A program made the translations under genes and the position numbers. Positions 1 to 34,470 of a stretch of 34,470 nucleotides of DNA are shown here, one piece after another; the stretch's first letter is position 1, and every line of letters starts with the position of its first letter. The notes beneath the pieces are model-generated. The model did not search any database. It was not told where the DNA came from and saw nothing but the letters and a program-made list of their open reading frames with translations. This DNA is from a virus (lineage: Duplodnaviria > Heunggongvirae > Uroviricota > Caudoviricetes). The DNA lies in IMG/VR virus record IMGVR_UViG_2917875804_000002, positions 1 through 34,470 of that record; one strand, 5' to 3'.

Positions 1-634
1 TTACTGGATACTATTTGAAATAAGAAAGGAATTGCTAGGGTTATCAACGTTAGCATTAAGGCTGCTATCGCAATTATAAAGCCAGTTTTTTTTCGCAATG
101 ATTTTATTGATTTCTTTCGGAAGTCGTTTATCAAGTCCTGCAAAATCCTTTCCCATTCTAGAAAGTTGATCATCATCCAATTTATTTACGATTTTTCCTT
201 GGTAACCTTTAGTCGGTATTATTGTTTTAAATAATAACATTCGGGCTACTGCAGAATTTTGTGTCAATGAGAATGGTTCTTTTGACATATTTACAAGATA
301 TATTGAAATTATGCCATTATATCCAGGGTCAATATGCCCTGGATTCGTCATGATAATTCCATTTTTTGATAGTGTGTTTCTTGGGAATATTACACCAGCT
401 AAATTTTTTTGCAAGTTGGAATTTTTCATTTAACTCTAATATTACAGTTTCCCCTGGCATCAGGATATGGTTGTTACGTGTTTTTTTATTGTCTTGACAG
501 TCTGGTATATGTATTGTTTTTACAGAGAGATCAATGCTTGCAGATTGAACTTTAAATGTTCCATTTAATACCGTTAATGGATCAAAAATGTTGCCTCGCT
601 GAATTTCATCATTGATTTCTATTTCAGACAGCAT
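1..634 (-). CDS. dCTP deaminase/dUTPase-fold protein with C-terminal extension (cargo); reading frame broken by apparent 1-nt insertion in T7 run 404-410
   Basis: ORFs 329..634 and 1..429 overlap in different frames; N-part MLSEIEINDEI...NGTFKVQSASIDLSV and C-part NLAGVIFPRNTLSKNGIIMTNPGHIDPGYNGIISIYLVN resemble E. coli Dcd by eye (RIDPGWSG-type motif); RBS-like AGGA upstream of ATG at 634; strongly AT-rich. Confidence 0.6.
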
Positions 635-697: not shown

Positions 698-1675
698 TCA
701 AGATGCTCTGGGGAAAAAATGTGCATAAATCATAGTCATTTTTATATCAGAGTGGCCTAAAATATCTCGTAAAACCAAAATATTACCACCATTCATCATA
801 AAATGGCTGGCGAATGTATGGCGCAGAACGTGGGTGCATTGGCCCTCTGGTAACTCAATGTCAGCTCGCTTTACTGCTCGTTCAAAGGCTTTTCTGCAAG
901 GAGTGAATAACTTCCCTCTGTTCTTAGGGAGTTCGTCATACAGATCCTGAGATATCGGCACGGTACGGTTTTTCTTGCCCTTAGTCTTGGTATAGGTGAT
1001 CCGGTATTTCGATAACTGATGGCCCTGCAGATTTTCGGCTTCACTCCAGCGCGCGCCGGTGGCCAGGCATATTTTTGCAATTAAAAGTAGACTGGGGTTT
1101 TGAGAATCAGCACAGGCATCCAGCAGACGTTTAATTTCTTCCGGGGTCAGGAACGCCAGTTCACCCTCAGCAATTTTAAATGTTGGCAGCCCGGCAAGCG
1201 GATTGGGGGCTGACCAGTGGCCCAACTTTTTCAGTGTGCCAAAAACAGATGATAGGTTGCGCTGTTCAAGGTTTACAGTGCGGGGCTTAACGGGCGACAT
1301 AAGCGTGCCCTCTTCATTTCGCACTTCACCTTTTAGCCGCGCTTCTCGGTATTTAGTAAAATCACCGGCTGTCAGCTCTGAGGCGATGGGATCGCCTAGA
1401 CCATTACAGATAATTCTAAGTTTCGCCATGAGGCGCTTGGGGTCTGCGAGTGTTTGACCATACAGGGAATACCACTGCTCAATTAATTCTGATAGGTGTC
1501 GCCGATCTTCCTTTTCCCCCAGCCATGGCTTTTTGTTCACTTCTTCCATTGTGAAGCTTTCAAAAGCAATGGCTTCGCCTTTCGTAGCAAATTGCTTACG
1601 CACGCGCTTGCCATTGCGTCCATGGGGATAGCACTCGCACAACCATTTACCGTTTGGCTGTTTTCTGACAGTCAT
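698..1675 (-). CDS. int: tyrosine site-specific integrase (P2/186 Int family)
   Basis: 325-aa ORF; C-terminal catalytic region HVLRHTFASHFMMNGGNILVLRDILGHSDIKMTMIYAHF with R/H/R/Y signature; position next to repressor. Confidence 0.9.
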   Translation of the reverse strand: MTVRKQPNGKWLCECYPHGRNGKRVRKQFATKGEAIAFESFTMEEVNKKPWLGEKEDRRHLSELIEQWYSLYGQTLADPKRLMAKLRIICNGLGDPIASELTAGDFTKYREARLKGEVRNEEGTLMSPVKPRTVNLEQRNLSSVFGTLKKLGHWSAPNPLAGLPTFKIAEGELAFLTPEEIKRLLDACADSQNPSLLLIAKICLATGARWSEAENLQGHQLSKYRITYTKTKGKKNRTVPISQDLYDELPKNRGKLFTPCRKAFERAVKRADIELPEGQCTHVLRHTFASHFMMNGGNILVLRDILGHSDIKMTMIYAHFFPRAS

Positions 1676-1677
1676 GT

Positions 1678-2310
1678 TTAGATACTCTTTATTACTTTGA
1701 CTGCACGCCCAATAACTTCCACATCATCAGTAGAGCACTCGAAAGACGCTTCATCTTGATTTACTACAATCTTATTGCCGGGAATCCGCATGATTTTTGC
1801 AACAATAATCATTCCATCAATATTGATAAGCCAGAATCCATTGCTGACCTGTTTAATTGATTTATCGATGAGATAACAATTAGTAGGGGTTTCTAAGAAC
1901 ATCAATTCTTCATAATCTGCAGGTAATATGCTGTGGTCTAGGAAAATCTCTTCATCAATACTGAGTTGTCCATTCTCCAGGGTTCCTTTAGGAATAGCTG
2001 GAGTTATGAGTTTGGATAACGGTTTAATTGCTTGTTTGTTCTCATTATGAGAACTTTTCTCAGGCTCAGCTCCTCCTTTCATGCTTCCCTGTCCTGTAGC
2101 TAACCAAAGCAACGAAACACCGGTTTCTAGTGCGCACTGAATTATCCAGTCAGCAGGAAAGCTGTCACGTAACACTCTGTTTGCCATAGTGCTTTTTGAG
2201 ACATTCAGGTGCTCGCTTAATGCCTGCTTAGTTGTGAATCCATAAGCCTCAAGCAGCCTTTCAATAGCTGCCTTACCTCCCGTATCGGAACCCATTCTGA
2301 TGTTTAACAT
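1678..2310 (-). CDS. cI: CI-type lysogeny repressor (186 CI-like, N-terminal HTH)
   Basis: 210-aa ORF directly upstream of int on same strand, divergent from apl/cII; HTH-like segment TTKQALSEHLNVSKSTMANRV. Confidence 0.75.
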   Translation of the reverse strand: MLNIRMGSDTGGKAAIERLLEAYGFTTKQALSEHLNVSKSTMANRVLRDSFPADWIIQCALETGVSLLWLATGQGSMKGGAEPEKSSHNENKQAIKPLSKLITPAIPKGTLENGQLSIDEEIFLDHSILPADYEELMFLETPTNCYLIDKSIKQVSNGFWLINIDGMIIVAKIMRIPGNKIVVNQDEASFECSTDDVEVIGRAVKVIKSI

Positions 2311-7683: not shown

Positions 7684-7872
7684 ATGCAGGATTATTTTTT
7701 AGAGTCGTTGAAACTCCAGCGAATTGATTTTTTTCTTAAGCTTGTAGTGGCCAGTGAATGTAGTGATCAGGAAAAAGAGCTTGCGCTGCTTTGGATTTCA
7801 GAACTGACGGATGAACTCATGGCAAAAATCAGAACCCACGAATATAACCGCTCAATGGATGTTGTTAACTGA
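7684..7872 (+). CDS. small SOS-controlled protein, possible Tum-type antirepressor analogue
   Basis: 62-aa ORF with AGGAGG RBS (7673-7678); position equals 186 tum (LexA-regulated operon before the DinI homologue). Confidence 0.4.
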   Translation: MQDYFLESLKLQRIDFFLKLVVASECSDQEKELALLWISELTDELMAKIRTHEYNRSMDVVN

Positions 7873-7882
7873 GGGGTAATTT

Positions 7883-8116
7883 ATGCGCATTGAAATAATG
7901 ATCGATAAAGAGCAGAAGATTAGCCAGTCTACCCTGGACGCCCTTGAATCCGAGCTTTACCGCAATCTGCGCCCCCTGTATCCCAAAACGGTAATTCGCA
8001 TCCGCAAAGGTAGCTCTAACGGTGTGGAACTGACCGGACTGAAACTGGACGAAGAAAAAAAACAAGTGATGAAAATTATGCAGCAGGTATGGGAAGACGA
8101 CAGCTGGCTGCATTAA
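7883..8116 (+). CDS. DinI-family protein
   Basis: 77 aa MRIEIMIDKEQKISQSTLDALESELYRNLRPLYP...IMQQVWEDDSWLH closely parallels E. coli DinI by eye (MRIEV...WE..D.W). Confidence 0.75.
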   Translation: MRIEIMIDKEQKISQSTLDALESELYRNLRPLYPKTVIRIRKGSSNGVELTGLKLDEEKKQVMKIMQQVWEDDSWLH

Positions 8117-8229
8117 GAAACGTTGCCCCCAGGAGGATTCATTCTGATGGGGGCTGGTTTGGGCAACGAGTGAAACGAGGCGTAAAGTGGTCGGCCTGTT
8201 GGCAGCGTTGAAAAGCGAAAGCCGCAATA

Positions 8230-8649
8230 CTATAAATTAGTTTTTATTAGATAGTGCCTTTGTGCCCCTGCTTTAGGGAAATCAGGTAATGACATTTGAA
8301 GTATATAACCCTGTTTTTCATAAAAAGGGAGCGCCTGGAAGCTAAATGTATCGACAAGGCCATGAATACAACCGTTCATCACACCTTCTTTCTCAGCCAT
8401 GCTCATAAGTTTGCTACCCAAACCGCCACTCCGTGCTGATTCACTCACCCAAAGATAATCAATACACAGCCATGGACCTTTCCTGTCCGCAATTAACCCA
8501 CCTACCATCTCTCCGATTTCATTTCTGCAGTAGACACCGATCTGTCCATTTTTACTAAAATCGATAAACTGAGCATTGTAGCTTCTTAGCCCCGCTAACA
8601 GTTCTTCTCTATCATATTCAGTAACTTTATGAACTACTTGAATGTTCAT
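8230..8649 (-). CDS. GNAT-family N-acetyltransferase (cargo at the old/tin-equivalent position)
   Basis: 139 aa; acetyl-CoA binding motif region [12 protein letters not shown]; AT-rich; oriented opposite to early operon, just inside cos. Confidence 0.7.
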
Positions 8650-9084: not shown

Positions 9085-10369
9085 ATGTTAGTTGGTTTAG
9101 AAGGAATGATGATGCAAAAGCAAAGGGTTTCTCAAGTATTCGTTCCCGGAGGTATGCCAAAGTTAACTTATGTTGAACGGACTGGGGGCGAGATAAAAGA
9201 AAGACTTGAGAGTGCAAAAGATAATTTGTGTAAGTTGGTTACCTTGACGGGACAAACCAAATCCGGAAAGACTGTACTTACACAAATGGTGTTTCCCTTT
9301 ACTGATCCGAATGTCATATGGATTGATGGTGGCGGTATTGCTGTCGAAAATGATATTTGGGAGCAAGTTTTAGACAAATTAGATATTTACACTAATGAGG
9401 AGGTCAACGTTTCTGATTCCTCATCAACTAATATCTCAGGCAAGGTTCATGCATCTGGTAGTGCCCTTGTTGTAAAAGGAGGAGGAGAGGCAGGGGTTTC
9501 GCAGACCGATGGGTCTTCTAAAGGTAAAAAAAAATGCAAGAACGATTACCCCAAAAAATGCGGCGATTAAAGCCTTAGCAGATAGTCAGGCTAGCCTTAT
9601 TATTGATGACTTTCATTACTTAGATAGAGAAATGCAGGGCAGCTTTGTAAGAGCAGTAAAGCCTTTAGTGTTTCATGGTGTACCTGTAATATTAATTGCT
9701 ATTCCACATAGAAGATACGATGCGATAAAAGTTGAGAGGGAGATTACTGGAAGATTAGAAAATATAATGATGCCATATTGGTCAGAAGATGAATTAAAAC
9801 AGATTGCATCATCGGGTTTTCCTCTTTTAAATATATCTGTATCTCAAGACGTTATAGACTTGCTTGCATCTGAAGCTTTAGGTAGCCCACATTTAATGCA
9901 AGAATTTTGCAAAAGTTTGTGTGCTGCTCATTCAATAAAAGAAACATCTGAGCAGACAGTGACAATATCTTCTATTGATGACTCACTGTTTAGAAATGTA
10001 GCTGAATCAACAGGGAAAGTGGTATTCGATAAATTAGCAACTGGCCCTCGCCAACGTTCCGATAGGTTGCCTCGTTTATTAAAGAATGGCGAGAGAGTTG
10101 ATATTTATAAAGTTGTCTTATATGCACTCTCTAACATGAAACCAGGAATGCAAACTATTCAGTATGAAGAGTTACGTACTGCTATTAGAGAAATAGTCGC
10201 AGAAACACCTCCCCAGGCTAATGAGGTTACACGAGTTCTTGAAAAAATGAGCGAGATCGCATCTAGTGAAGAGGCTTCAACACCGGTTATAGATTGGGAG
10301 AGAGAAGAACAAAAACTACATATTACCGATCCATTTTTTGCGTTTTACCTAAAATGGCGTGATCATTAA
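9085..10369 (+). CDS. P-loop NTPase of unknown family (cargo); frame broken in A9 run 9526-9534; true start probably ATG 9106-9112
   Basis: ORFs 9085..9570 and 9509..10369 overlap by 62 nt; Walker A GQTKSGKT in N-part, Walker B-like LIIDDFHYL in C-part; AT-rich; GAAGGA RBS before ATG triplet. Confidence 0.6.
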
Positions 10370-10409: not shown

Positions 10410-11445
10410 TTATGACCCTGCTAGGTAATACTTATCGAAAATAATAACTCTCTCGCCAAGCCAGTCGTTTAGTTCTTCCATTTGCTTCTGTAATGGCATT
10501 AATTCGTTCCGTACAAAAACTCGACTCGCCTTCTCCACATCCCCAAAACCCCCAACATTATTCGGCATTATCCCCATCATTTGCGGCGGCACGCGGTGTG
10601 CCGCCATCATGTCATCCCGGCTCACGTTCTTGATGTTCAGAAATTCATCCTTCGCTGCGACTTCTGACAACGGGATGATCTGAAGCCCGTCTTTTTTTGC
10701 CATTAGGCGAGTACATAAACAGGTTGCGGAAGTTACCAGGACCTTTGGCACTTTTCATCGCGTTGCGGAGATTGTTCACATCCTCCTGATTCTGCGCGGC
10801 ATCGGTCATATACATGATGAAGCCTGCATGGCTGCCGTTGATGTAATATTTGCGTCGGAACAGCGTGGCGGACTCATTGAGCAGGGCGGACGGAATGGCA
10901 GAAAGATAGCCGGGCAGGCCGTAGATCTCCTGGTTAATGTCCGGTTCCATCAGATGAAAAATGCTGCCTTTCGTGAACTGATACGGCTGGGTTGTCATAC
11001 CGTATTGCACAAACCAGTAGGTATCCAGGTCTAACCCGCGTCGGGTGTATTTTGCCAGAGCAGGCTCAAGGGCGATAACTTCACCGAAGCGGTTCGTGCG
11101 TTTCTCCAGGTAGGCGTTACCAAATACCAGATAGTCCTGCACAAAACGTGAAAAAGCCTGCTGGCTGAGCAGCGGGTGGGGGATGTAGGTACTGGTCAGA
11201 ATGTTGCATTTCACCGCAATTGGTGAACTGTGATGCACGGCGGCGCGGAAGGTGCGCGCCAGTCCGTCAAAGCTTACTGGCGGCTCATACCAGCGATCTG
11301 TCTGTACGCATTCCACATAGTCCAGTAGTTCGCGGCGGTCCAGAACAGGAACGGGATCACCGAAGCTGAATGCTTCGGCTGTAGTTTGACTTTTATGCTG
11401 GATCTGGTTCGTCGACGCAGCGCGGTTCTTCTTACTCTTTCCCAT
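10410..11445 (-). CDS. Q: portal (capsid portal protein, P2 gpQ-like); frame broken in T7 run 10691-10697
   Basis: ORFs 10645..11448 and 10410..10751 overlap; combined length about 345 aa; convergent partner of terminase, position next to cos. Confidence 0.85.
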
Positions 11446-13211
11446 CAAAAAATCTCCACAATATTACTGGTATTGGCGGACTCGCCCTGCAGTGGTTCGT
11501 TAAACAGTGCGTGCATTGTTGCCCAGGCCAGATCGGCGTGGCTGGCTTCTTCGCTGCGGCTGGCTTCATAGGTTGGGCGGTTGCCACTGGCGGTGGTTGC
11601 GCGACGGATTGCCATGAATGACTGCGCAATGTCGGTGTGCCCGGCGTCAAACTCCAGACGGCGGTGGCTGATAATGTCGTAGGCCTTGAGTACCAGGGCG
11701 TTTTTAACGTTGGGGTTGTAGACAAACTCCCGGACGGCAGGAAAGAACGCTTTCACGTTCTCGTAAACCCCGTGACCAACGCCGGTTGAGTCGATACCGA
11801 TATAAGTCACGTTGTACTGTTCGGTCAGTTTTTTGATGGCGTCAGCCTGGGCGCGGAAGTCCATCCCGCGCCACTGGTGACGCTCAAGAATGCGGAACTT
11901 ACCACCCGGCACGGCTGGCGGTGCCACCACCACGCATCCGGCGCTGTCGCCGTTTTGCGTACCTTTTGCCGGGTCATAACCGATCCACACTTCGCGCCAG
12001 CCAAACGGGCGCAGCGCCAGTGCATGAAAGTCGGTCCAGACTTCCCAACTGTCCACCATGCACGCCTGCAGCTCGCTGAGCGGAAACACGGACGCGAGAT
12101 CGTCCACAAACTCGCACATCAGCAGGTTCTGGTATTCGTCCGGGCTGTACTCCATGCGCAACTGGTCGAGGTCGAACAGGTTACAGCCGCCGCGCACCGC
12201 ATCTTCCACGGTGACTATCTGGCGGTACTGCCCGTCTGCGCACAGCAGGCCGGGGGCCAGATTGCTGTGGGACAGGTCGATGTCCACCTTATCGGCTTTG
12301 TTGCGCCCACGGTTGAACAGCGCACCGGACCAGAATGGATAAGCACTGTGGGTCAGACTGGATGGCGTGGAAAAATAGGTCTGCCGCCATTTTTTGTGAA
12401 TAGCCATACCGGAAGCCACTTTGCGCAGCTCCTGGAATTTCGGGATCCAGAAATATTCATCCAGATACAAGTTGCCGTGGTAACTCTGGGCCGTGCGGGC
12501 ATTGGTTCCGAGGAAGTAAAGCGTGGCCCCATTAGGAAGCACCATCGGATCGCCTTTCAGCTCCACCTCCACTTCTTTGGCGAAGTCGATGATGTACTGC
12601 TTAAAGACGTGGGCCTGTGCCTTACTGGCGGAAAGGAAAATCTGGTTACGTCCGGTCAGCAGGGCGTCAATCAGGGCTTCACGGGCAAAATAGAAGGTCG
12701 CGCCGATCTGGCGTGACTTCAGCAGGTTGCGGATGCGGTTGGTTTTTCCGGCTTCCCACCAGTGGCGCTGGTAGTTGAACATGGAGGAATGAAAGATTTC
12801 TTCCAGCTTCTCAATCTGTTCATCGGTGAAAACATTCTTTTCCGGCTGACGGCGCGGGCCTTTGTTACGGTTGGCGACGTTAGGGTTTAAGTCGGCTTCG
12901 TTGCCGCCATTGTTAAACTTACCGATCCGCGCATGGCGCTCCGACTGGCGCGCCAGCAGGTCAATCTCTTTGAAATCTTTCCCTTCTTTGTGCTCCTTCA
13001 TAATGAGCTGGCAGTAGCGTGCGGCGGTGGTGAGCTGCATCTGATCCAGCGGCCCATAGTCACCCCACTTGTCGCGTTTTTTCCAGCTGTGAACGGTTGC
13101 AACTTTCTCGCCCAGCATTTCAGCAATGCGGGCTACGCGGTATCCCTGAAAGTACAGCAGCATGGCCTGCCGACGGGGATCGAGATCTGCGGGTGTCAGT
13201 GTGGTGTTCAT
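11445..13211 (-). CDS. P: terminase large (ATPase) subunit, P2 gpP-like
   Basis: 588-aa ORF upstream of portal on same strand, divergent from scaffold gene. Confidence 0.9.
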   Translation of the reverse strand: MNTTLTPADLDPRRQAMLLYFQGYRVARIAEMLGEKVATVHSWKKRDKWGDYGPLDQMQLTTAARYCQLIMKEHKEGKDFKEIDLLARQSERHARIGKFNNGGNEADLNPNVANRNKGPRRQPEKNVFTDEQIEKLEEIFHSSMFNYQRHWWEAGKTNRIRNLLKSRQIGATFYFAREALIDALLTGRNQIFLSASKAQAHVFKQYIIDFAKEVEVELKGDPMVLPNGATLYFLGTNARTAQSYHGNLYLDEYFWIPKFQELRKVASGMAIHKKWRQTYFSTPSSLTHSAYPFWSGALFNRGRNKADKVDIDLSHSNLAPGLLCADGQYRQIVTVEDAVRGGCNLFDLDQLRMEYSPDEYQNLLMCEFVDDLASVFPLSELQACMVDSWEVWTDFHALALRPFGWREVWIGYDPAKGTQNGDSAGCVVVAPPAVPGGKFRILERHQWRGMDFRAQADAIKKLTEQYNVTYIGIDSTGVGHGVYENVKAFFPAVREFVYNPNVKNALVLKAYDIISHRRLEFDAGHTDIAQSFMAIRRATTASGNRPTYEASRSEEASHADLAWATMHALFNEPLQGESANTSNIVEIF

Positions 13212-23802: not shown

Positions 23803-24813
23803 ATGAAAGAGAATAAAATACGTTCTGCCGATGGCGTGAGAGGTTTCGCTTTGATGATTGTTGTGGTGATGCATGCTACGGGACTATTCTTTCCCTCACT
23901 TCATGATCATCTCGGAGGTACGGGGCAGCCCGGTGTTTGGTTGTTTTTTGTTCTTAGCGCCTTTTTGTTGACACATAAATTTATTAATTCTGGTTTTTCG
24001 TTTTTGAATGTGTTGAGTTATCTTTTAGGGCGAACAATAAGGATATTACCGATTTTTTATATTGCAGTATTAATTTATTACCTTATGGGATTTTATGATT
24101 TAGAGAAAATGAAATCGATAATTTCATTTGATAGTACTTACATCCATTTCTGGACTATTCCGATAGAATTCAAGTTTTACTTTTTGTTGCCGATTGTGGT
24201 TTATCTCGCATCTAGTATCCAGAAAGTTGCAGGTAGAAAATATTCTTTGTTGTTTTTGATATTGTTAACCTTAGCGTTCGCTTTTATATACCCTTATACG
24301 GATGACGAAATCAACGGTAGGCTACCGTATTACATTCCTGTTTTTATGTATGGAATTATAATTGCGTTTATGTATAACTATTTTCAAATTAAAATATCAT
24401 CTCTCGTTAGTGATGGGGTGTCAATTGCGATTATATTAATATTTATAATGTTGACCCCTCCTTTTCAGGGGGCTAATGGTTGGCTGGGTAATAAATTTGT
24501 GGTATTAGGGCCATTTATTGCTCTCTTTGTATATTTGCAAGTAAATTCCAGTGGGTATGTAAGCGCGGTTTTATCTTCAAAAATCATGGCGGATTTGGGG
24601 AAATATAGTTTTTCAATTTATTTGTTTCATATAATGATAATTTTTATTGTTTATCCTAAATTTTTGGATAATGTTACTGCATACTTAGTTACTATAGCTT
24701 TATGTATTGGCGGTGGGGCTATTGCCTATCATTGCATTGAATCTCCCTTGGAATCGTTCAGACATAAGCTTATGAAAAGAATAACGCAGGCTTATCAGAA
24801 TCAAAATATTTAA
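23803..24813 (+). CDS. acyltransferase family 3 integral membrane protein (OafA/Oac-like O-acetyltransferase), cargo at Z/fun-equivalent locus
   Basis: 336 aa, about 10 hydrophobic segments, N-terminal RGFALMIVVVMH (conserved His in first TM), very AT-rich, own upstream region. Confidence 0.75.
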   Translation: MKENKIRSADGVRGFALMIVVVMHATGLFFPSLHDHLGGTGQPGVWLFFVLSAFLLTHKFINSGFSFLNVLSYLLGRTIRILPIFYIAVLIYYLMGFYDLEKMKSIISFDSTYIHFWTIPIEFKFYFLLPIVVYLASSIQKVAGRKYSLLFLILLTLAFAFIYPYTDDEINGRLPYYIPVFMYGIIIAFMYNYFQIKISSLVSDGVSIAIILIFIMLTPPFQGANGWLGNKFVVLGPFIALFVYLQVNSSGYVSAVLSSKIMADLGKYSFSIYLFHIMIIFIVYPKFLDNVTAYLVTIALCIGGGAIAYHCIESPLESFRHKLMKRITQAYQNQNI

Positions 24814-30301: not shown

Positions 30302-30783
30302 TGATGGTGCTGGGATTGTACGTGTTTATGCTGCGCACCGTGCCGTATCAGGAACTGCAGTATCAACGCAGCTGGCGACATGCGGCTAACAGCCGGGTAA
30401 ATCGTCGTCCGTCCACGCAGTTTCTGGGACCGGACAACGACATGCTGACGCTTTCCGGTGTTCTTATGCCGGAGATAACAGGCGGCAGGCTGTCGTTGCT
30501 GGCACTTGAGCAGATGGCAGAACAGGGGAAAGCATGGCCCCTGATTGAAGGTAGCGGCACGATTTACGGCATGTATGTGATTGAGGGACTGAATCAGACT
30601 AAAACGGAGTTTTTCCGCGACGGTATGCCGCGCCGGATTGAGTTCACCCTGTCGCTCAAACGGGTGGATGAATCCCTGTCCGATATGTTCGGTGATCTCA
30701 GTGCGCAACTGAATAATCTGCAGGGAACGGCAACATCTGCCTTAAGCGATATCAGTAAAACGGTGGGAGGGCTTCTGTCGTGA
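30298..30783 (+). CDS. U: tail protein U
   Basis: 161 aa, start overlaps T stop. Confidence 0.85.
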   Translation: MMMVLGLYVFMLRTVPYQELQYQRSWRHAANSRVNRRPSTQFLGPDNDMLTLSGVLMPEITGGRLSLLALEQMAEQGKAWPLIEGSGTIYGMYVIEGLNQTKTEFFRDGMPRRIEFTLSLKRVDESLSDMFGDLSAQLNNLQGTATSALSDISKTVGGLLS

Positions 30784-31880
30784 ATTTCAGCTCTGAACTG
30801 CTTAACAAAGGCAACAAAACTCCGGCATTCAGCATCAGTATTGAAGGCAGGGATATCACCACTGTGCTGGACAACCGCCTGATGGGGCTGACGCTGACGG
30901 ATAACCGGGGATTTGAAGCGGACCAGCTTGATCTGGAGCTTGACGACGCCGATGGAAAAATCGTGCTGCCGCGCCGTGGTGCGGTCATTACGCTGGCGCT
31001 GGGCTGGAAGGGGCAGCCGCTTTTCCCGAAAGGGGCATTCACGGTGGACGAGATTGAACACACTGGCGCACCGGACCGCCTGACTATCCGGGCGCGAAGT
31101 GCTGATTTTCGTGAAACGCTGAATACCCGCCGTGAAAAGTCGTGGCACAAGACCACCGTTGGGGAAGTGGTGAAGGAAATAGCTGCGCGGCACAAACTGA
31201 AGATGGCACTGGGTAAAGACCTGTCAGATAAACCCGTGGAACATATAGACCAGACCAATGAGAGTGACGGCAGTTTTCTGATGCGGTTGGCGCGCCAGTA
31301 CGGTGCTATTGCGTCGGTGAAAAATGGCAATCTGTTATTCATCCGACAGGGACAGGGTAAAAGCGCCAGCGGTAAACCACTACCGGTGATCACTATCACA
31401 CGCAAGGACGGCGACAGTCACCGCTTTACCCTAGCAGATCGCGGAGCCTATACGGGCGTAATTGCCAGTTGGTTGCATACCCGCGAACCCGTGAAGAAAG
31501 AAAGCACCACGGTGAAGCGTAAGCGCAGGACCGCAAAGCAGAAGAAAGAGCCGGAAGCGAAGCTGGGCGATTACCTGGTGGGTACGGATGAAAACGTGCT
31601 GGTACTTAATCGCACTTATGCCAACCGGAGCAACGCTGAACGGGCAGCGAAAATGCAGTGGCAACGCCTGCAACGCGGCGTTGCGTCATTCTCGCTACAA
31701 CTGGCGGAAGGGCGGGCGGATCTCTACACGGAAATGCCTGTGAAGGTCAGTGGCTTTAAACAGCCAATAGATGATGCGGAATGGACCATTACCACCCTGA
31801 CGCATAATGTCAGCCCGGATAACGGTTTTACGACCAGTATTGAACTTGAAGTGAAAATTGATGATCTTGAAATGGAATAA
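30780..31880 (+). CDS. D: tail protein D (late control gene D)
   Basis: 366 aa, GTG start overlapping U stop. Confidence 0.85.
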   Translation: MNFSSELLNKGNKTPAFSISIEGRDITTVLDNRLMGLTLTDNRGFEADQLDLELDDADGKIVLPRRGAVITLALGWKGQPLFPKGAFTVDEIEHTGAPDRLTIRARSADFRETLNTRREKSWHKTTVGEVVKEIAARHKLKMALGKDLSDKPVEHIDQTNESDGSFLMRLARQYGAIASVKNGNLLFIRQGQGKSASGKPLPVITITRKDGDSHRFTLADRGAYTGVIASWLHTREPVKKESTTVKRKRRTAKQKKEPEAKLGDYLVGTDENVLVLNRTYANRSNAERAAKMQWQRLQRGVASFSLQLAEGRADLYTEMPVKVSGFKQPIDDAEWTITTLTHNVSPDNGFTTSIELEVKIDDLEME

Positions 31881-31948
31881 ATGGTTCTCAATATTGATAT
31901 TTTGTGTATCATTGCATTGATTCTGATAGCAAAGGTAGGGATCTGGAT

Positions 31949-32167
31949 ATGATGAATTGTCCAAAGTGTGGTCATGCGGCGCACACAAGGAGCAGTTTTC
32001 AAGTAACGGAAAGCACCAAAGAGCGTTACTGCCAGTGCCAAAATATTAACTGCGGGAGCACTTTTGTTACCCATGAAACAGTGGTCCGGTTTATTGTGAC
32101 ACCTGCATTGATCGCTACAGCCCCTCCACATCCATCGCTAGGAGGTCAGGGGCATATGAATTTTTGA
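31949..32167 (+). CDS. ogr: Ogr/B-type zinc-finger late-gene transcription activator
   Basis: MMNCPKCGHAAHTRSS...CQCQNINCGSTF; CxxC-N22-CxxC zinc finger as in P2 Ogr/186 B. Confidence 0.8.
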   Translation: MMNCPKCGHAAHTRSSFQVTESTKERYCQCQNINCGSTFVTHETVVRFIVTPALIATAPPHPSLGGQGHMNF

Positions 32168-32175
32168 GAAAGAGA

Positions 32176-32195
32176 ACCTGCTACGGCAGGTTTTT
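32176..32195. terminator. bidirectional rho-independent terminator between convergent ogr and WYL/BRCT gene
   Basis: ACCTGC-TACG-GCAGGT stem-loop flanked by A-run on the left and TTTTT on the right. Confidence 0.6.
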
Positions 32196-32677
32196 ATTCA
32201 TCTGGGATCTCACCTGTTTCAAGAAAATGTATAAAGCCAGGCTCATCTATGATGATAGTGCCTTTCATCCTTGCTGCCGATACTTTTGATGGGCCTGCAT
32301 TGTAACCGCAGCAGAGCATCTGAAGGTTTTGGGTTACAGAGGTTCTTACCGTTAATCCTTGTTCATTCGCCTTATCAACCAACCTTTCTTTATCTGCTTT
32401 CTTAAATCCGGTGAAACACACATCGAATGTATTTTTTTTTCGGGCCAGACTGCTTAGTGAGGTGTGAGTAGTTTTCGGGGAGGAATGTCTCGCATTCCTG
32501 AATGGCTTGTTCTTGTGAATCGTATTGTTTAAGAATGCGGTCTTTTCGGAAGGTTTTTATTCGGTCGGTGTTCTTACAAATGCCCTGTATATGATTTTCG
32601 CTATAACTGATGCTCTGTATTGAGTGAACACCGATACGACCATTTGCATTAATGTAAACAAAGTGAAGTTCTTCCAT
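32194..32677 (-). CDS. small protein with N-terminal WYL-like domain and C-terminal BRCT-like domain; frame broken in T9 run 32432-32440
   Basis: ORFs 32402..32677 and 32194..32421; N-part FVYINANGRIGVHSIQSISYSENHIQGICKNTDRIKTFRKDRI follows the WYL-domain pattern (F.Y..G...I.....H/W..G.C....R.FR.DRI); C-part FTGFKKADKERLVDKANEQGLTVRTSVTQNLQMLCCGYNAGPSKVSAARMKGTIIIDEPGFIHFL resembles a LigA-type BRCT by eye; AAGAGG RBS. Confidence 0.5.
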
Positions 32678-32703
32678 GTGAAACCTCTTGGCTTGATTTC
32701 AAG

Positions 32704-32742
32704 ATGGCGACAGGCAAGACGGACGCAAAACTCTGTCGCCAT
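32704..32742. repeat. perfect 10-bp inverted repeat (ATGGCGACAG ... CTGTCGCCAT) in the leader of the WYL/BRCT gene
   Basis: Arms at 32704-32713 and 32733-32742 with 19-nt spacer, 27-64 nt upstream of the start codon at 32677. Confidence 0.5.
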
Positions 32743-32761
32743 TTTGCCGCCACTACCAAAG

Positions 32762-32794
32762 AAAAAGGGGCTACGCCTTCACGTAACCCCTTGA
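32762..32794 (-). terminator. ssrA rho-independent terminator
   Basis: On minus strand GGGGTTACG-TGAAGG-CGTAGCCCC followed by TTTTT, immediately downstream of tmRNA CCA end. Confidence 0.55.
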
Positions 32795-32800
32795 TTTATT

Positions 32801-33163
32801 TGGTGGAGCTGGCGGGAGTTGAACCCGCGTCCGAAATTCCTACATCCTCGGTACTACATGCTTAGTCAGTCTTTACATTCGCTTGCCAGCTGCGGACAGA
32901 CACGCCACTAACAAACTAGCCTGATTAAGTTTTAACGCTTCAACCCCAGGCTGGGCTTCCACGCGATCTCTTTTGGGTTTGACCTCTCTTGATCCCCGTC
33001 CTAAGAGCGGAGGCTAGGGAGAGAGGGCTCTAAGCAGGTTATTAAGCTGCTAAAGCGTAGTTTTCGTCGTTTGCGACTATTTTTTGCGGCTTTTTACGAG
33101 GCCAACCGCCCCTCGGCATGCACCTTGGGTTTCGCAAATCCCGTCGAATCCAGAATCAGCCCC
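32801..33163 (-). ncRNA. ssrA: tmRNA (SsrA RNA)
   Basis: 363 nt; reverse complement begins GGGGCTGATTCTGGATTCGACGGG and ends CCAGCTCCACCA, matching E. coli tmRNA essentially throughout. Confidence 0.95.
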
Positions 33164-33377
33164 AATGTGTAACGTTAAGTATACCAGATTTTTGAGCGCC
33201 ATGACTAGCCCCAAAGGCGTTATCATCCTGGAATTAGCGCCTGCATAGTATGATTTTTCTTCGATTAAGCAATGGGATGGCTACATCAATGTCAGATTTG
33301 ACAGTCGACAAGGTGTTCATTCGCGCCACCGGATAGGGAGGCGCGGTGAAGATTTGATTAGTATCGCTTATATAGGT

Positions 33378-33861
33378 TTAACGGTGCGCGTTTTTCATGA
33401 TACGTGCTTTATCAACCTGCCATTCACGTTCTTTGATATCAGAACGTTTATCGTGTTGTTTCTTACCTTTCGCGACGCCGATTTTTACTTTGCACCAGGC
33501 ATTTTTCCAGTACAGGGAGAGCGCCACTACGGTATAACCTTCACGGTTCACTCGGCCATAGAGAGAGTCAAGTTCGCGCTGGTTGAGAAGCAGTTTGCGG
33601 GTGCGAGTAGGGTCGCACACCACGTGCGTGGAAGCCACTGCCATCGGCGTGATGTTTGCTCCAAACAGGAACGCTTCTCCGTCGCGCAGAAGGACATAGC
33701 TGTCGCTAATATTGGCTTTTCCTGCGCGCAGGGATTTAACTTCCCAGCCTTGCAGGGCAAGTCCCGCTTCGAACTCTTCTTCAATAAAGTATTCGTGACG
33801 GGCGCGCTTGTTAAGCGCGATGGTCGCTGAACCAGGTTTATGTGCTTTTTTTCTTCGTCAT
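33378..33861 (-). CDS. smpB: SsrA-binding protein SmpB; frame broken by extra base in T7 run 33846-33852 (expected A6 after ATGACGAAG)
   Basis: ORF 33378..33644 is identical by eye to the E. coli SmpB C-terminal 88 aa; N-terminal MTKKK start codon at 33861 is out of frame by one nucleotide. Confidence 0.85.
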
Positions 33862-33993
33862 AAGCGTCGTGAATCATCGGTAATCTGAAATCGAAAATAC
33901 CCCATATCAATCCTGCGGGGGACAAGGCTCTATCTTAGCATGAACCGGATGTTACCCAGCGTCGGGATAGCGTTTTTTTTTACGGCAGGATAA

Positions 33994-34470
33994 ATGATAT
34001 TATTTGTTGGATTTTTGTTGATGGAAATTGTTATGCCTCAGATTAGCCGGACCGCACTGGTACCCTACAGCGCGGAGCAAATGTATCAGTTAGTGAATGA
34101 CGTTCAGTCTTATCCTCAGTTTTTACCAGGGTGCACTGGAAGCCGGATTCTGGAGTCCACTCCTGGGCAGATGACCGCTGCGGTAGATGTGTCTAAGGCT
34201 GGGATCAGCAAAACGTTTACTACCCGCAACCAATTGACCAGTAACCAAAGTATTCTGATGAGTCTGGTTGATGGACCGTTTAAGAAATTGATCGGCGGCT
34301 GGAAGTTTACGCCGTTGAGCCAGGACGCGTGCCGTATTGAGTTTCATCTCGACTTTGAGTTTACCAATAAGTTGATTGAACTCGCCTTTGGTCGCGTGTT
34401 TAAAGAGCTGGCAGCTAATATGGTGCAGGCTTTTACTGTTCGTGCAAAAGAGGTCTACAGTGCCAGGTAA
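33994..34470 (+). CDS. ratA: RatA/PasT (YfjG) SRPBCC-family ribosome-association toxin homologue
   Basis: 158 aa, MPQISRTALVPYSAEQMYQLVNDVQSYPQFLPGC...; divergent from smpB as in E. coli K-12; window ends exactly at its stop codon. Confidence 0.85.
   Translation: MILFVGFLLMEIVMPQISRTALVPYSAEQMYQLVNDVQSYPQFLPGCTGSRILESTPGQMTAAVDVSKAGISKTFTTRNQLTSNQSILMSLVDGPFKKLIGGWKFTPLSQDACRIEFHLDFEFTNKLIELAFGRVFKELAANMVQAFTVRAKEVYSAR

What the first reader, a model, noticed from the sequence alone, without database searches (positions are those of the whole stretch)
32168..32800. Small WYL-like + BRCT-like protein with an inverted-repeat leader wedged between ogr and ssrA
Seen in sequence: ORFs 32402..32677 and 32194..32421 (minus) join across a T9 run into a protein of about 160 aa. 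The N-terminal half fits the WYL-domain sequence pattern and the C-terminal half fits a BRCT fold. Its leader carries a perfect 10-bp inverted repeat (32704-32742), and a clean bidirectional terminator (32176-32195) separates it from ogr. Established knowledge: WYL domains are ligand-sensing modules of transcription factors that control defence islands and DNA-damage responses, often autoregulating through palindromic operators; BRCT domains bind phosphorylated or nicked DNA ends and partner proteins. Inference: a WYL/BRCT fusion this small at the att-proximal tip of a prophage is not a P2 or 186 core gene, and could be a sensor that couples a DNA-damage or nucleotide signal to prophage or att-site behaviour, or a standalone defence/regulatory cargo.
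Basis: partly seen in the sequence, partly recalled or inferred. Interest (0 to 1): 0.6.

Follow-up and report, generated by a model that had tools for sequence, protein, structure and literature searches.

The report
Phage WYL–BRCT lysogeny gene beside ssrA
The two small ORFs are one ordinary 160-residue prophage gene, split here by a probable sequencing error, whose protein joins a single-stranded-DNA-sensing WYL domain to a phosphate-binding BRCT domain; it is common next to the repressor gene of P2/186-like phages and its function has never been tested.

Summary
ORFs 32677..32402 and 32421..32194 (minus strand) join across a T9 run into a 160-aa protein.

**The split is almost certainly an artefact.** All 57 related loci carry T8. 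The window also has extra bases in homopolymers that break smpB, the portal gene and two cargo genes.

**The regulatory reading is not supported.**
- The protein has no HTH domain.
- The "leader palindrome" consists of 186-type integrase arm sites in the P' arm of attP.
- Its inverted copy is missing in 25 of 71 related leaders.

**The gene is phage-borne.** Packaged genomes (Cartapus, MLG42) carry it beside attP. It belongs to the lysogeny module: in 26 of 32 P2-like prophages from different species it follows the immunity repressor gene. Outside prophages it sits beside Abi and restriction genes.

**Best guess, untested:** a lysogen-expressed binder of ssDNA/5'-phosphate junctions that acts in superinfection exclusion.

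The family is uncharacterised and mis-annotated as "DNA ligase". Interest is moderate.

The parts
32194..32677 (-). WYL-BRCT gene. It is 160 aa once one base of the homopolymer is removed. Start ATG at 32677-32675, stop TAA at 32196-32194.
   Evidence: ORFs. Intact 483-nt CDS in relatives. 122 homologues. phrog_2561, E=6e-77.
32432..32440 (.). T9 homopolymer (A9 on the coding strand) that splits the gene. Relatives have 8 bases here.
   Evidence: A8 in 57/57 related loci against A9 in the window only.
32453..32677 (-). Codes for the WYL domain: residues 1-75, a five-strand Sm-like barrel (3-52) plus two helices.
32215..32424 (-). Codes for the BRCT domain (residues 85-154 in the corrected frame), with invariant T89, G90 and K131.
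32684..32689 (-). Shine-Dalgarno sequence AAGAGG, 6 nt before the ATG.
   Evidence: Read directly from the sequence.
32700..32746 (.). Inverted repeat (arms 32700-32713 and 32733-32746). Each arm contains a 186-type Int arm-site motif: TGGCGACA at 32705-32712 and its complement at 32734-32741.
   Evidence: Consensus tgccGCCActt from PMC3448106. The inverted copy is absent in MLG42-type leaders.
32733..32753 (-). Tandem pair of Int arm-type sites (GTGGCGGCAAAATGGCGACAG, 11-nt spacing). This is the P' arm of attP/attR.
   Evidence: Near-invariant, with G/A variation in each repeat, about 55 nt upstream of the ATG in all class B leaders aligned and in 71 loci. The matching tandem pair lies in the P arm.
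32765..32792 (-). Terminator hairpin immediately after the 3' end of ssrA. It is carried by the phage attP.
   Evidence: Scan. Present in the attP of Cartapus and MLG42.
32801..32845 (-). att identity block: the last 45 nt of ssrA, duplicated in the phage attP and at attL.
   Evidence: Alignment. attL of TUM9754.
32801..33163 (-). ssrA (tmRNA), same orientation as the WYL-BRCT gene.
   Evidence: ARAGORN. Rfam RF00023, 294.9 bits.
32175..32192 (.). Hairpin terminator between the convergent genes ogr and WYL-BRCT.
   Evidence: and the sequence.
31949..32167 (+). ogr/Delta-like late activator gene, convergent with the WYL-BRCT gene.
   Evidence: Annotated in relatives.
698..2310 (-). Integrase (698-1675) and 186-type CI repressor (1678-2310). 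In the circular phage this lysogenic operon points across attP toward the WYL-BRCT gene.
   Evidence: Pfam Int_N/Phage_integrase and Phage_CI_repr/Phage_CI_C. Gene order in Cartapus.

Best explanation
This is one phage gene, split in this assembly by a homopolymer overcall.

**The protein.** It is small, has no enzymatic domain and has two domains. The N-terminal WYL barrel is the module that senses single-stranded DNA in CapW, DriD and PafBC. A flexible linker joins it to a single BRCT domain of the RFC1/LigA kind with an intact phosphate-binding pocket.

**Where it belongs.** It is part of the lysogeny module of P2/186-like phages. In most lineages it lies directly after the immunity repressor gene, often just before int. 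In this ssrA-integrating lineage it lies on the far side of attP. In the prophage it therefore ends up just downstream of ssrA, in the same orientation.

**The palindrome.** The 'leader palindrome' is part of the P' arm of attP (integrase arm-type sites). It is not an operator for this protein.

**Inferred mechanism.** The protein is made in lysogens and recognises DNA that combines a single-stranded stretch with a 5'-phosphorylated duplex end or nick. Such structures include gaps, resected ends and replication or annealed-cos intermediates. By occupying them, or by recruiting a partner through the BRCT domain, it protects the lysogen, most likely as a superinfection-exclusion or defence factor.

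**Shown:** gene identity, both folds, phage origin, operon context and the nature of the repeat.
**Inferred:** the DNA ligand, expression in lysogens and the exclusion role.
For: **Artefactual split**
- A8 in 57/57 relatives.
- Other homopolymer insertions break smpB, the portal gene, a PDC-S59-like gene and a DCD-like gene.

**Folds**
- Full model pLDDT 91.8, with a low-confidence linker and pTM 0.52.
- The WYL-only model's best neighbours are PafBC, CapW-ssDNA, BrxR and DriD-ssDNA.
- Pfam WYL and BRCT hit relatives.

**BRCT class**
- The profile hits the RFC1 BRCT (7e-5) and the LigA BRCT (1e-4), aligning T-G and G-P-x-K.
- T89, G90 and K131 are invariant in 55 sequences.
- They correspond to the Ser/Thr-Gly...Lys phosphate pocket (PMC10386641).
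- The isolated RFC1 BRCT binds recessed 5'-phosphate DNA with Kd about 10 nM (PMC9293004).

**WYL ligand**
- ssDNA in CapW (PMC11662680) and in the DriD structures.

**Phage-borne**
- The Cartapus and MLG42 genomes carry attP (45 nt of ssrA, terminator, arm sites) followed by the gene.

**Operon context**
- CI then the gene, with 4-45 nt gaps, in Mannheimia PHL101, Vibrio PV94, Xenorhabdus, Pectobacterium and Y. ruckeri.
- Among 56 species-level loci, 19 have a repressor immediately upstream, 7 have one a gene away and 6 have the ogr-convergent arrangement.

**Conflict context outside prophages**
- AbiGi-like, then the gene, then AbiTii.
- MrcB_N+HNH, then the gene.
- Mrr_cat convergent, inside an integrase/methylase island.

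**Repeat**
- It matches the 186-type arm-site consensus, with tandem copies in both attP arms.
Against: - No experiment or paper addresses this family.
- DNA binding and ligand specificity rest on homology to distant domains. The same BRCT pocket can bind phosphoproteins.
- No sigma-70 promoter was found between the ssrA terminator and the ATG. Expression in this lineage is therefore unexplained.
- The gene keeps its place across very divergent phages, while true defence cargo at the neighbouring int-attP slot varies: DCD-like here, RES-like in Cartapus, none in MLG42. That pattern fits a phage-intrinsic role as well as it fits defence.
- The PADLOC hit covers only the BRCT part of a candidate system, PDC-S48.
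- Similar-looking small proteins occur in other, non-P2 phages.
- 24 of the 56 species-level loci have no recognised P2 context.
Confidence: 0.45

Rival explanations
1. It is a DNA-damage sensor that tunes the prophage's own lysis-lysogeny decision. The WYL domain senses ssDNA. The BRCT domain contacts a partner such as CI, Int or RecA-loading factors at 5' gap junctions. The outcome is either stabilised lysogeny (less spurious SOS induction) or promoted induction or excision.
For: - It is tightly linked to the repressor and integrase genes across divergent phages, often with gaps of 0-45 nt.
- It is more conserved than the neighbouring variable cargo.
- Characterised WYL proteins are ssDNA-triggered DNA-damage sensors.
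- A relative of this prophage also carries a DinI-like gene.
Against: - 186-type phages already have a dedicated SOS route, and Cox/Apl act as directionality factors (my own knowledge).
- The family also occurs away from any prophage, beside Abi and restriction genes.
- No partner is known.
Confidence: 0.25
2. It protects phage DNA or counters host defence during infection. It would cap nicks, cohesive ends or gaps of the phage's own DNA against host nucleases or DNA-sensing defence systems, or compete with the BRCT domain of host LigA.
For: - The BRCT domain is closest to DNA-end and nick-binding BRCTs.
- Structural neighbours among viral proteins are phage NAD-ligases and ligase B subunits.
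- Small similar proteins are found in other phages.
Against: - Its position in the repressor operon, pointing away from the early lytic operon, is atypical for anti-defence genes.
- Its presence inside bacterial defence islands fits defence better than counter-defence.
Confidence: 0.15
3. One reading: a WYL-type regulator that binds the 32704-32742 palindrome and autoregulates or controls att-site behaviour.
For: The palindrome is real and lies between the ssrA terminator and the start codon. WYL domains are common in transcription factors (PMC4012209).
Against: - There is no HTH or other sequence-specific dsDNA-binding domain; the WYL barrel begins at residue 3.
- The arms are Int arm-site motifs shared with the other arm of attP.
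- The inverted copy is missing in 25 of 71 leaders with an intact gene.
- In class A phages the gene has no leader at all; it starts 4-45 nt after cI.
Confidence: 0.03
4. In this particular genome the gene is a true pseudogene, or a phase-variable gene switched off by slippage at the A8/A9 run.
For: The window as given has A9. Homopolymers of this length do slip in vivo (my own knowledge).
Against: - The same assembly has one-base homopolymer insertions in smpB, the portal gene and two other genes. That pattern points to a technical cause.
- 57/57 relatives have A8.
- Truncated database variants are noisy, multi-frameshift sequences.
- The lysine pair encoded by the run is not conserved in orthologues.
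Confidence: 0.1

Closest known systems
wHTH-WYL-WCX regulators (CapW, BrxR, DriD, PafBC)
   Same: They share an Sm-like WYL barrel, and these proteins are its closest structural neighbours. The TFRxDR-type motif is conserved. The likely ligand is ssDNA, as in CapW and DriD.
   Different: This protein has no winged HTH and no WCX dimerisation domain. The output module is a BRCT domain. It is therefore not a DNA-sequence-specific transcription factor of this family.
DNA-binding BRCT domains of RFC1 (p140) and NAD-dependent ligase LigA
   Same: These are the best sequence-profile matches. The BRCT fold is shared. The T-G...K phosphate pocket is conserved.
   Different: Here the BRCT is a stand-alone module fused only to WYL. 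There is no clamp-loader AAA+ module and no ligase adenylation, OB or HhH domain. The 'DNA ligase' and 'exonuclease' annotations in PHROGs and phage records are transfers from the BRCT domain alone.
[not shown]
   Same: Like them, it is an accessory gene of a P2-like prophage in a position expected to be expressed in the lysogen. Like Tin, it would act on DNA-replication intermediates without enzymatic activity. The resemblance is functional and comes from my own knowledge.
   Different: There is no sequence or fold relationship and the location differs (repressor operon or att tip). It is much more widely conserved than those genes. An exclusion phenotype has not been tested.
WYL+BRCT architecture listed by Makarova et al. 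2014 (PMC4012209)
   Same: It has the same two-domain combination, which that survey noted among WYL fusions.
   Different: That survey assigned no function or genomic context. The phage lysogeny-module association comes from this analysis.

Membership tests
WYL domain (Pfam PF13280) | Significant match to the Pfam WYL model | tested here: inconclusive
   The query itself gives no hit at E<=10, and the PADLOC WYL model gives only E=0.022. However, 4/55 close relatives (best 1.5e-5) and 26/62 longer relatives (best 1.2e-8) do match.
WYL domain (Pfam PF13280) | Five-strand Sm-like barrel whose nearest structures are WYL domains | tested here: met
   [not shown]
WYL domain (Pfam PF13280) | Conserved basic/aromatic signature at the end of the barrel (R-x-F-R-x-D-R-I type) | tested here: met
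   T42 is invariant, and F43, R44 and D46 are at least 90% conserved in 55 sequences. The comparison with the WYL signature rests on my own knowledge.
WYL domain (Pfam PF13280) | Binds ssDNA or another nucleic-acid ligand | not testable with these tools
   Needs binding assays.
BRCT domain (Pfam PF00533) | Match to the Pfam BRCT model | tested here: inconclusive
   The query scores E=9e-4 and 19.9 bits, just under the 21.3-bit cut-off. 38/55 and 50/62 relatives match.
BRCT domain (Pfam PF00533) | BRCT alpha/beta fold | tested here: met
   [not shown]
BRCT domain (Pfam PF00533) | Phosphate pocket: Ser/Thr-Gly after beta1 and Lys at the start of alpha2 | tested here: met
   T89, G90 and K131 are invariant. 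They lie after strand 85-89 and at the start of helix 129-137. The pocket definition comes from PMC10386641.
wHTH-WYL-WCX transcription regulators (BrxR/CapW/DriD/PafBC type) | N-terminal winged helix-turn-helix DNA-binding domain | tested here: not met
   The barrel starts at residue 3 and no HTH appears in the model or in the Pfam results.
wHTH-WYL-WCX transcription regulators (BrxR/CapW/DriD/PafBC type) | C-terminal WCX extension after the WYL domain | tested here: not met
   The C-terminal half is a BRCT domain.
NAD-dependent DNA ligase (the name given in PHROGs and several phage records) | Adenylation (nucleotidyltransferase), OB and HhH domains | tested here: not met
   The 160-aa protein matches only the last ~80 residues (the BRCT domain) of the LigA models.
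186-type integrase arm-binding sites of attP | Match to the consensus tgccGCCActt | tested here: met
   Plus strand: TGCCGCCACTA at 32745-32755 and TGTCGCCATTT at 32734-32744. An inverted copy lies at 32705-32712. The consensus is from PMC3448106.
186-type integrase arm-binding sites of attP | [quoted passage not shown] | tested here: met
   The P arm carries ATGGCGRCA-N2-TTGGCGGCA in the attP of Cartapus and MLG42 and at attL of TUM9754. The P' arm carries a tandem pair next to the gene.
186-type integrase arm-binding sites of attP | Bound by the integrase N-terminal domain | not testable with these tools
   Needs footprinting or EMSA.
Known anti-phage defence systems (PADLOC-DB 2.0) | Full-length match to a defence-system protein model | tested here: not met
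   Only the BRCT part matches the C-terminus of candidate PDC-S48 (E=1.7e-7, profile positions 334-406 of 411).

The most novel reading that the evidence does not exclude
The WYL-BRCT protein would be a new kind of output for the WYL ssDNA sensor. It would have neither HTH nor enzyme domain and would read two DNA features at once: an ssDNA tract and a 5'-phosphorylated duplex end or nick. Co-expressed with the repressor, it would either exclude superinfecting phages by capping their replication or cos intermediates, or feed a RecA-independent DNA-damage signal into the prophage's decision. In the ssrA/tRNA-integrating lineage, integration itself could rewire its expression by placing it behind a very strongly transcribed RNA gene.
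Probability: 0.3. Interest if true: 0.7.

Novelty: new variant of a known kind. Interest (0 to 1): 0.42.

Why it matters
- **Scale.** The family is large: 202 clusters at 50% identity with E<1e-30. It sits in a fixed place in the lysogeny module of many P2/186-like prophages of Enterobacterales, Vibrio, Pasteurellaceae, Pseudomonas and Burkholderia. It has no tested function and is mis-labelled as DNA ligase or exonuclease.
- **Biology.** It would extend WYL-domain biology beyond transcription factors.
- **Tractability.** It is a small, soluble two-domain protein with clear point mutants. Ready-made systems exist, such as the E. coli LF82 Cartapus prophage.
- **Annotation.** Genome annotators can take two points from this. 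The palindrome next to such genes belongs to attP. Split copies in long-read assemblies are usually homopolymer errors.

Tried and rejected
- **Programmed frameshift or transcriptional slippage at the A-run.** Rejected. The run is not conserved in orthologues. The 107-aa 'variants' in the database are noisy multi-frameshift copies of the same E. coli gene. 57/57 relatives have A8.
- **attL in the window.** Not present. No repeat of the ssrA end was found. The window starts inside the prophage, at the end of a cargo gene downstream of int.
- **Own promoter.** No sigma-70-like site was found on the minus strand between 32678 and 32800. No promoter-like block is conserved across divergent leaders.
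- **Known RNA element in the leader.** Rfam finds only tmRNA. The leader folds well (z = -4.2), but this reflects the terminator and the arm-site palindrome.
- **Sequence-profile search of the WYL half against PDB.** It gave only non-significant PafBC/PafC hits (E 1.1-2.2). The fold search was needed.
- **Function from fused domains.** Longer relatives carry a recurrent, Pfam-less domain of about 200 aa, TM segments or tandem duplications. That domain has no homologue among neighbours of the stand-alone genes.
- **IMG/VR loci.** They were nearly all redundant E. coli prophage ends.
- **AlphaFold-database fold search.** It was unavailable.
- **Literature.** Nothing on this protein.

Full report
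**Setting.** The window is a P2/186-like (Peduoviridae) prophage inserted at the 3' end of ssrA.
- tmRNA lies at 32801-33163 on the minus strand.
- It is followed by smpB and ratA.
- To its left lie gpD (30780-31880) and ogr (31949-32167, plus strand), then the region of the finding.
- At the other end are a 186-type CI repressor (1678-2310) and an integrase (698-1675), both on the minus strand.

**Observation.**
- Minus-strand ORFs 32677..32402 and 32421..32194 overlap at a T9 run, 32432-32440.
- Deleting one base gives a 160-aa protein.
- 171 complete E. coli genomes carry the same region at 96-99% identity but one base shorter. There it is a single 483-nt CDS annotated 'hypothetical protein' or 'BRCT domain-containing protein'.
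- The inverted repeat (arms 32700-13 and 32733-46) and the hairpin between the gene and ogr (32175-92) are confirmed.

**The frameshift is almost certainly technical.**
- Against its closest relative, the right-hand 5 kb of the window shows three indels. All are an extra T in a T-run: in this gene, in smpB (33846) and in an intergenic run.
- Across the prophage, further one-base homopolymer insertions split the portal gene (10698). A dCTP-deaminase-like gene (T7 at 404-410) and a PDC-S59-like gene (A9 at 9526-34) are likewise split at homopolymer runs.
- In 57 of 57 related loci the run is A8; only the window has A9.
- Truncated 'homologues' in the protein database are noisy multi-frameshift copies of the same gene.
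- The lysines encoded by the run are not conserved, so programmed slippage is not supported.

**What the protein is.**
- An AlphaFold2 model built from 55 homologues (pLDDT 91.8) shows a five-strand barrel plus two helices (residues 3-73). A low-confidence linker follows, then an alpha/beta domain (85-154).
- A family profile hits the BRCT domains of RFC1 (7e-5) and LigA (1e-4).
- T89, G90 and K131 are invariant. They form the Ser/Thr-Gly...Lys phosphate pocket described for BRCT domains (PMC10386641).
- The isolated RFC1 BRCT binds recessed 5'-phosphate DNA tightly (PMC9293004).
- Pfam's WYL model misses the query. It does hit 4/55 close and 26/62 more distant relatives.
- There is no HTH and no catalytic domain. 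The 'DNA ligase' and 'exonuclease' labels in PHROGs and phage records reflect the BRCT domain only.
- Makarova et al. 2014 listed WYL+BRCT among WYL architectures without further analysis.
- I found no paper on the protein.

**Phage or host?** It is phage-borne.
- The genomes of Escherichia phage Cartapus and Yersinia phage MLG42 carry the gene.
- Their attP contains the last 45 nt of ssrA, then a terminator hairpin, then the repeats, then the gene.
- The same 45 nt are duplicated at attL of a related E. coli prophage.
- About 400 E. coli genomes without the gene share only the terminator segment (32739-32800).

**The palindrome.**
- Its arms contain TGGCGACA/TGTCGCCA. A further copy (TGCCGCCA) lies 11 nt away in tandem.
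- This matches the 186-type Int arm-site consensus tgccGCCActt. [quoted passage not shown]
- A tandem pair is indeed present in the P arm of Cartapus and MLG42 attP and at TUM9754 attL. A second pair lies in the P' arm next to the gene.
- Across 71 related leaders, including phages using a tRNA or a third att site, the tandem pair is conserved (G/A variation within each repeat) about 55 nt upstream of the ATG. The inverted third copy that creates the palindrome is present in 46 and absent in 25.
- The protein has no sequence-specific DNA-binding domain.
- The repeat is therefore best read as part of attP, not as an operator.

**Genomic context elsewhere.**
- In Mannheimia PHL101, Vibrio PV94, and Xenorhabdus, Pectobacterium, Yersinia ruckeri and Serratia prophages, the gene follows the immunity repressor directly or one gene away. 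It is on the same strand and often lies just before int.
- I surveyed 56 species-level loci:

| Context | Loci |
|---|---|
| CI-type repressor 6-89 nt upstream | 19 |
| Repressor one gene further upstream | 7 |
| Arrangement seen here (convergent ogr 23-33 nt downstream) | 6 |
| No P2 markers | 24 |

- In the circular form of the present lineage the order is cI, int, a variable cargo slot, attP, then the WYL-BRCT gene, all in one direction. The cargo slot is dCTP-deaminase-like here, RES-like in Cartapus and empty in MLG42.
- The gene is therefore a conserved member of the lysogeny module.
- Among the non-P2 loci examined, three lie beside Abi or restriction genes. One is AbiGi-like, then the gene, then AbiTii. 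One is MrcB_N+HNH, then the gene. One is convergent with Mrr_cat in an integrase/methylase island.
- Some relatives are fused to an unknown domain of about 200 aa, to TM segments, or are duplicated in tandem.

**Mechanism.**
- Shown: a flexible two-module protein with a WYL barrel and a phosphate-pocket BRCT, encoded in the repressor operon of temperate phages.
- Inferred from characterised relatives: the WYL module binds ssDNA and the BRCT binds a 5'-phosphorylated duplex end or nick. Together they would recognise gaps, resected ends or annealed-cos and replication intermediates.
- Other lysogen-expressed accessory genes of P2-like phages are exclusion factors (my own knowledge), and the family also occurs in defence islands. 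I therefore rank a lysogen-protective exclusion or defence role first, at about 0.35-0.45 confidence.
- A DNA-damage sensor acting on the prophage's own decision comes second (0.25).
- Protection of the phage's own DNA or counter-defence comes third (0.15).
- How the gene is transcribed in the ssrA lineage is unresolved. No promoter is evident. Read-through from ssrA in the lysogen, or from cI-int across attP in the circular phage, are the candidates.

**Verdict.** The gene is a typical member of a widespread but functionally untested family. It is a new variant among WYL sensors, of moderate interest.

Noticed in passing
window 33846-33852 (smpB, 33378-33925, minus strand): smpB is split by one extra T in a T7 run. 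All complete E. coli genomes align with two fewer bases over 33170-34470. This suggests systematic homopolymer overcalling in this assembly.
   Followed up: partly
window 10410-11448 (minus), T7 at 10692-10698: The P2-type portal gene is split into two ORFs by a one-base homopolymer insertion relative to the TUM9754 prophage.
   Followed up: partly
window 1-634 (minus), T7 at 404-410: A dUTPase/dCTP-deaminase-like gene lies downstream of int, between int and attL (which is outside the window), and is split at a homopolymer. The same slot holds a RES-domain gene in phage Cartapus and nothing in MLG42 or TUM9754. It looks like a variable cargo hotspot and may hold a nucleotide-depletion defence gene.
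   Followed up: partly
window 9085-10369 (plus), A9 at 9526-9534: Two ORFs together match the PADLOC defence candidate PDC-S59 (profile positions 4-137 and 147-403 of 428). This is one gene split at an A9 run. It lies between the replication gene and the portal gene and is absent from the TUM9754 prophage.
   Followed up: partly
window 7865-8649 (minus): A GNAT acetyltransferase ORF (8230-8649) is followed by a 120-aa ORF with no family match (7865-8227). They may form a toxin-antitoxin-like pair in the same variable region.
   Followed up: no
window 23803-24813 (plus): An Acyl_transf_3 family acyltransferase gene follows the tail-fibre genes. It may be a surface-polysaccharide-modifying lysogenic-conversion gene.
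   Followed up: no
window 33170-34470: The host flank (smpB-ratA) is at most 95.2% identical to any of 5,426 complete E. coli genomes, and mostly 90-95%. The host is probably a non-coli Escherichia. A truncated copy of the WYL-BRCT protein is recorded from E. albertii (P0040).
   Followed up: partly
window 24722-24744 and 31902-31924: A 23-nt direct repeat (TTGCCTATCATTGCATTGAATCT and TTGTGTATCATTGCATTGATTCT, 87% identical) lies just upstream of ogr and upstream of the tail sheath gene. It may be a shared promoter or activator element.
   Followed up: no
proteins P0121, P0131, P0154, P0177, P0178, P0186 (relatives): A recurrent domain of about 200 aa with no Pfam match (motifs W..AF..AL and WTQG) is fused either N- or C-terminally to the WYL-BRCT module. 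Other relatives carry TM segments or two tandem WYL-BRCT units.
   Followed up: partly
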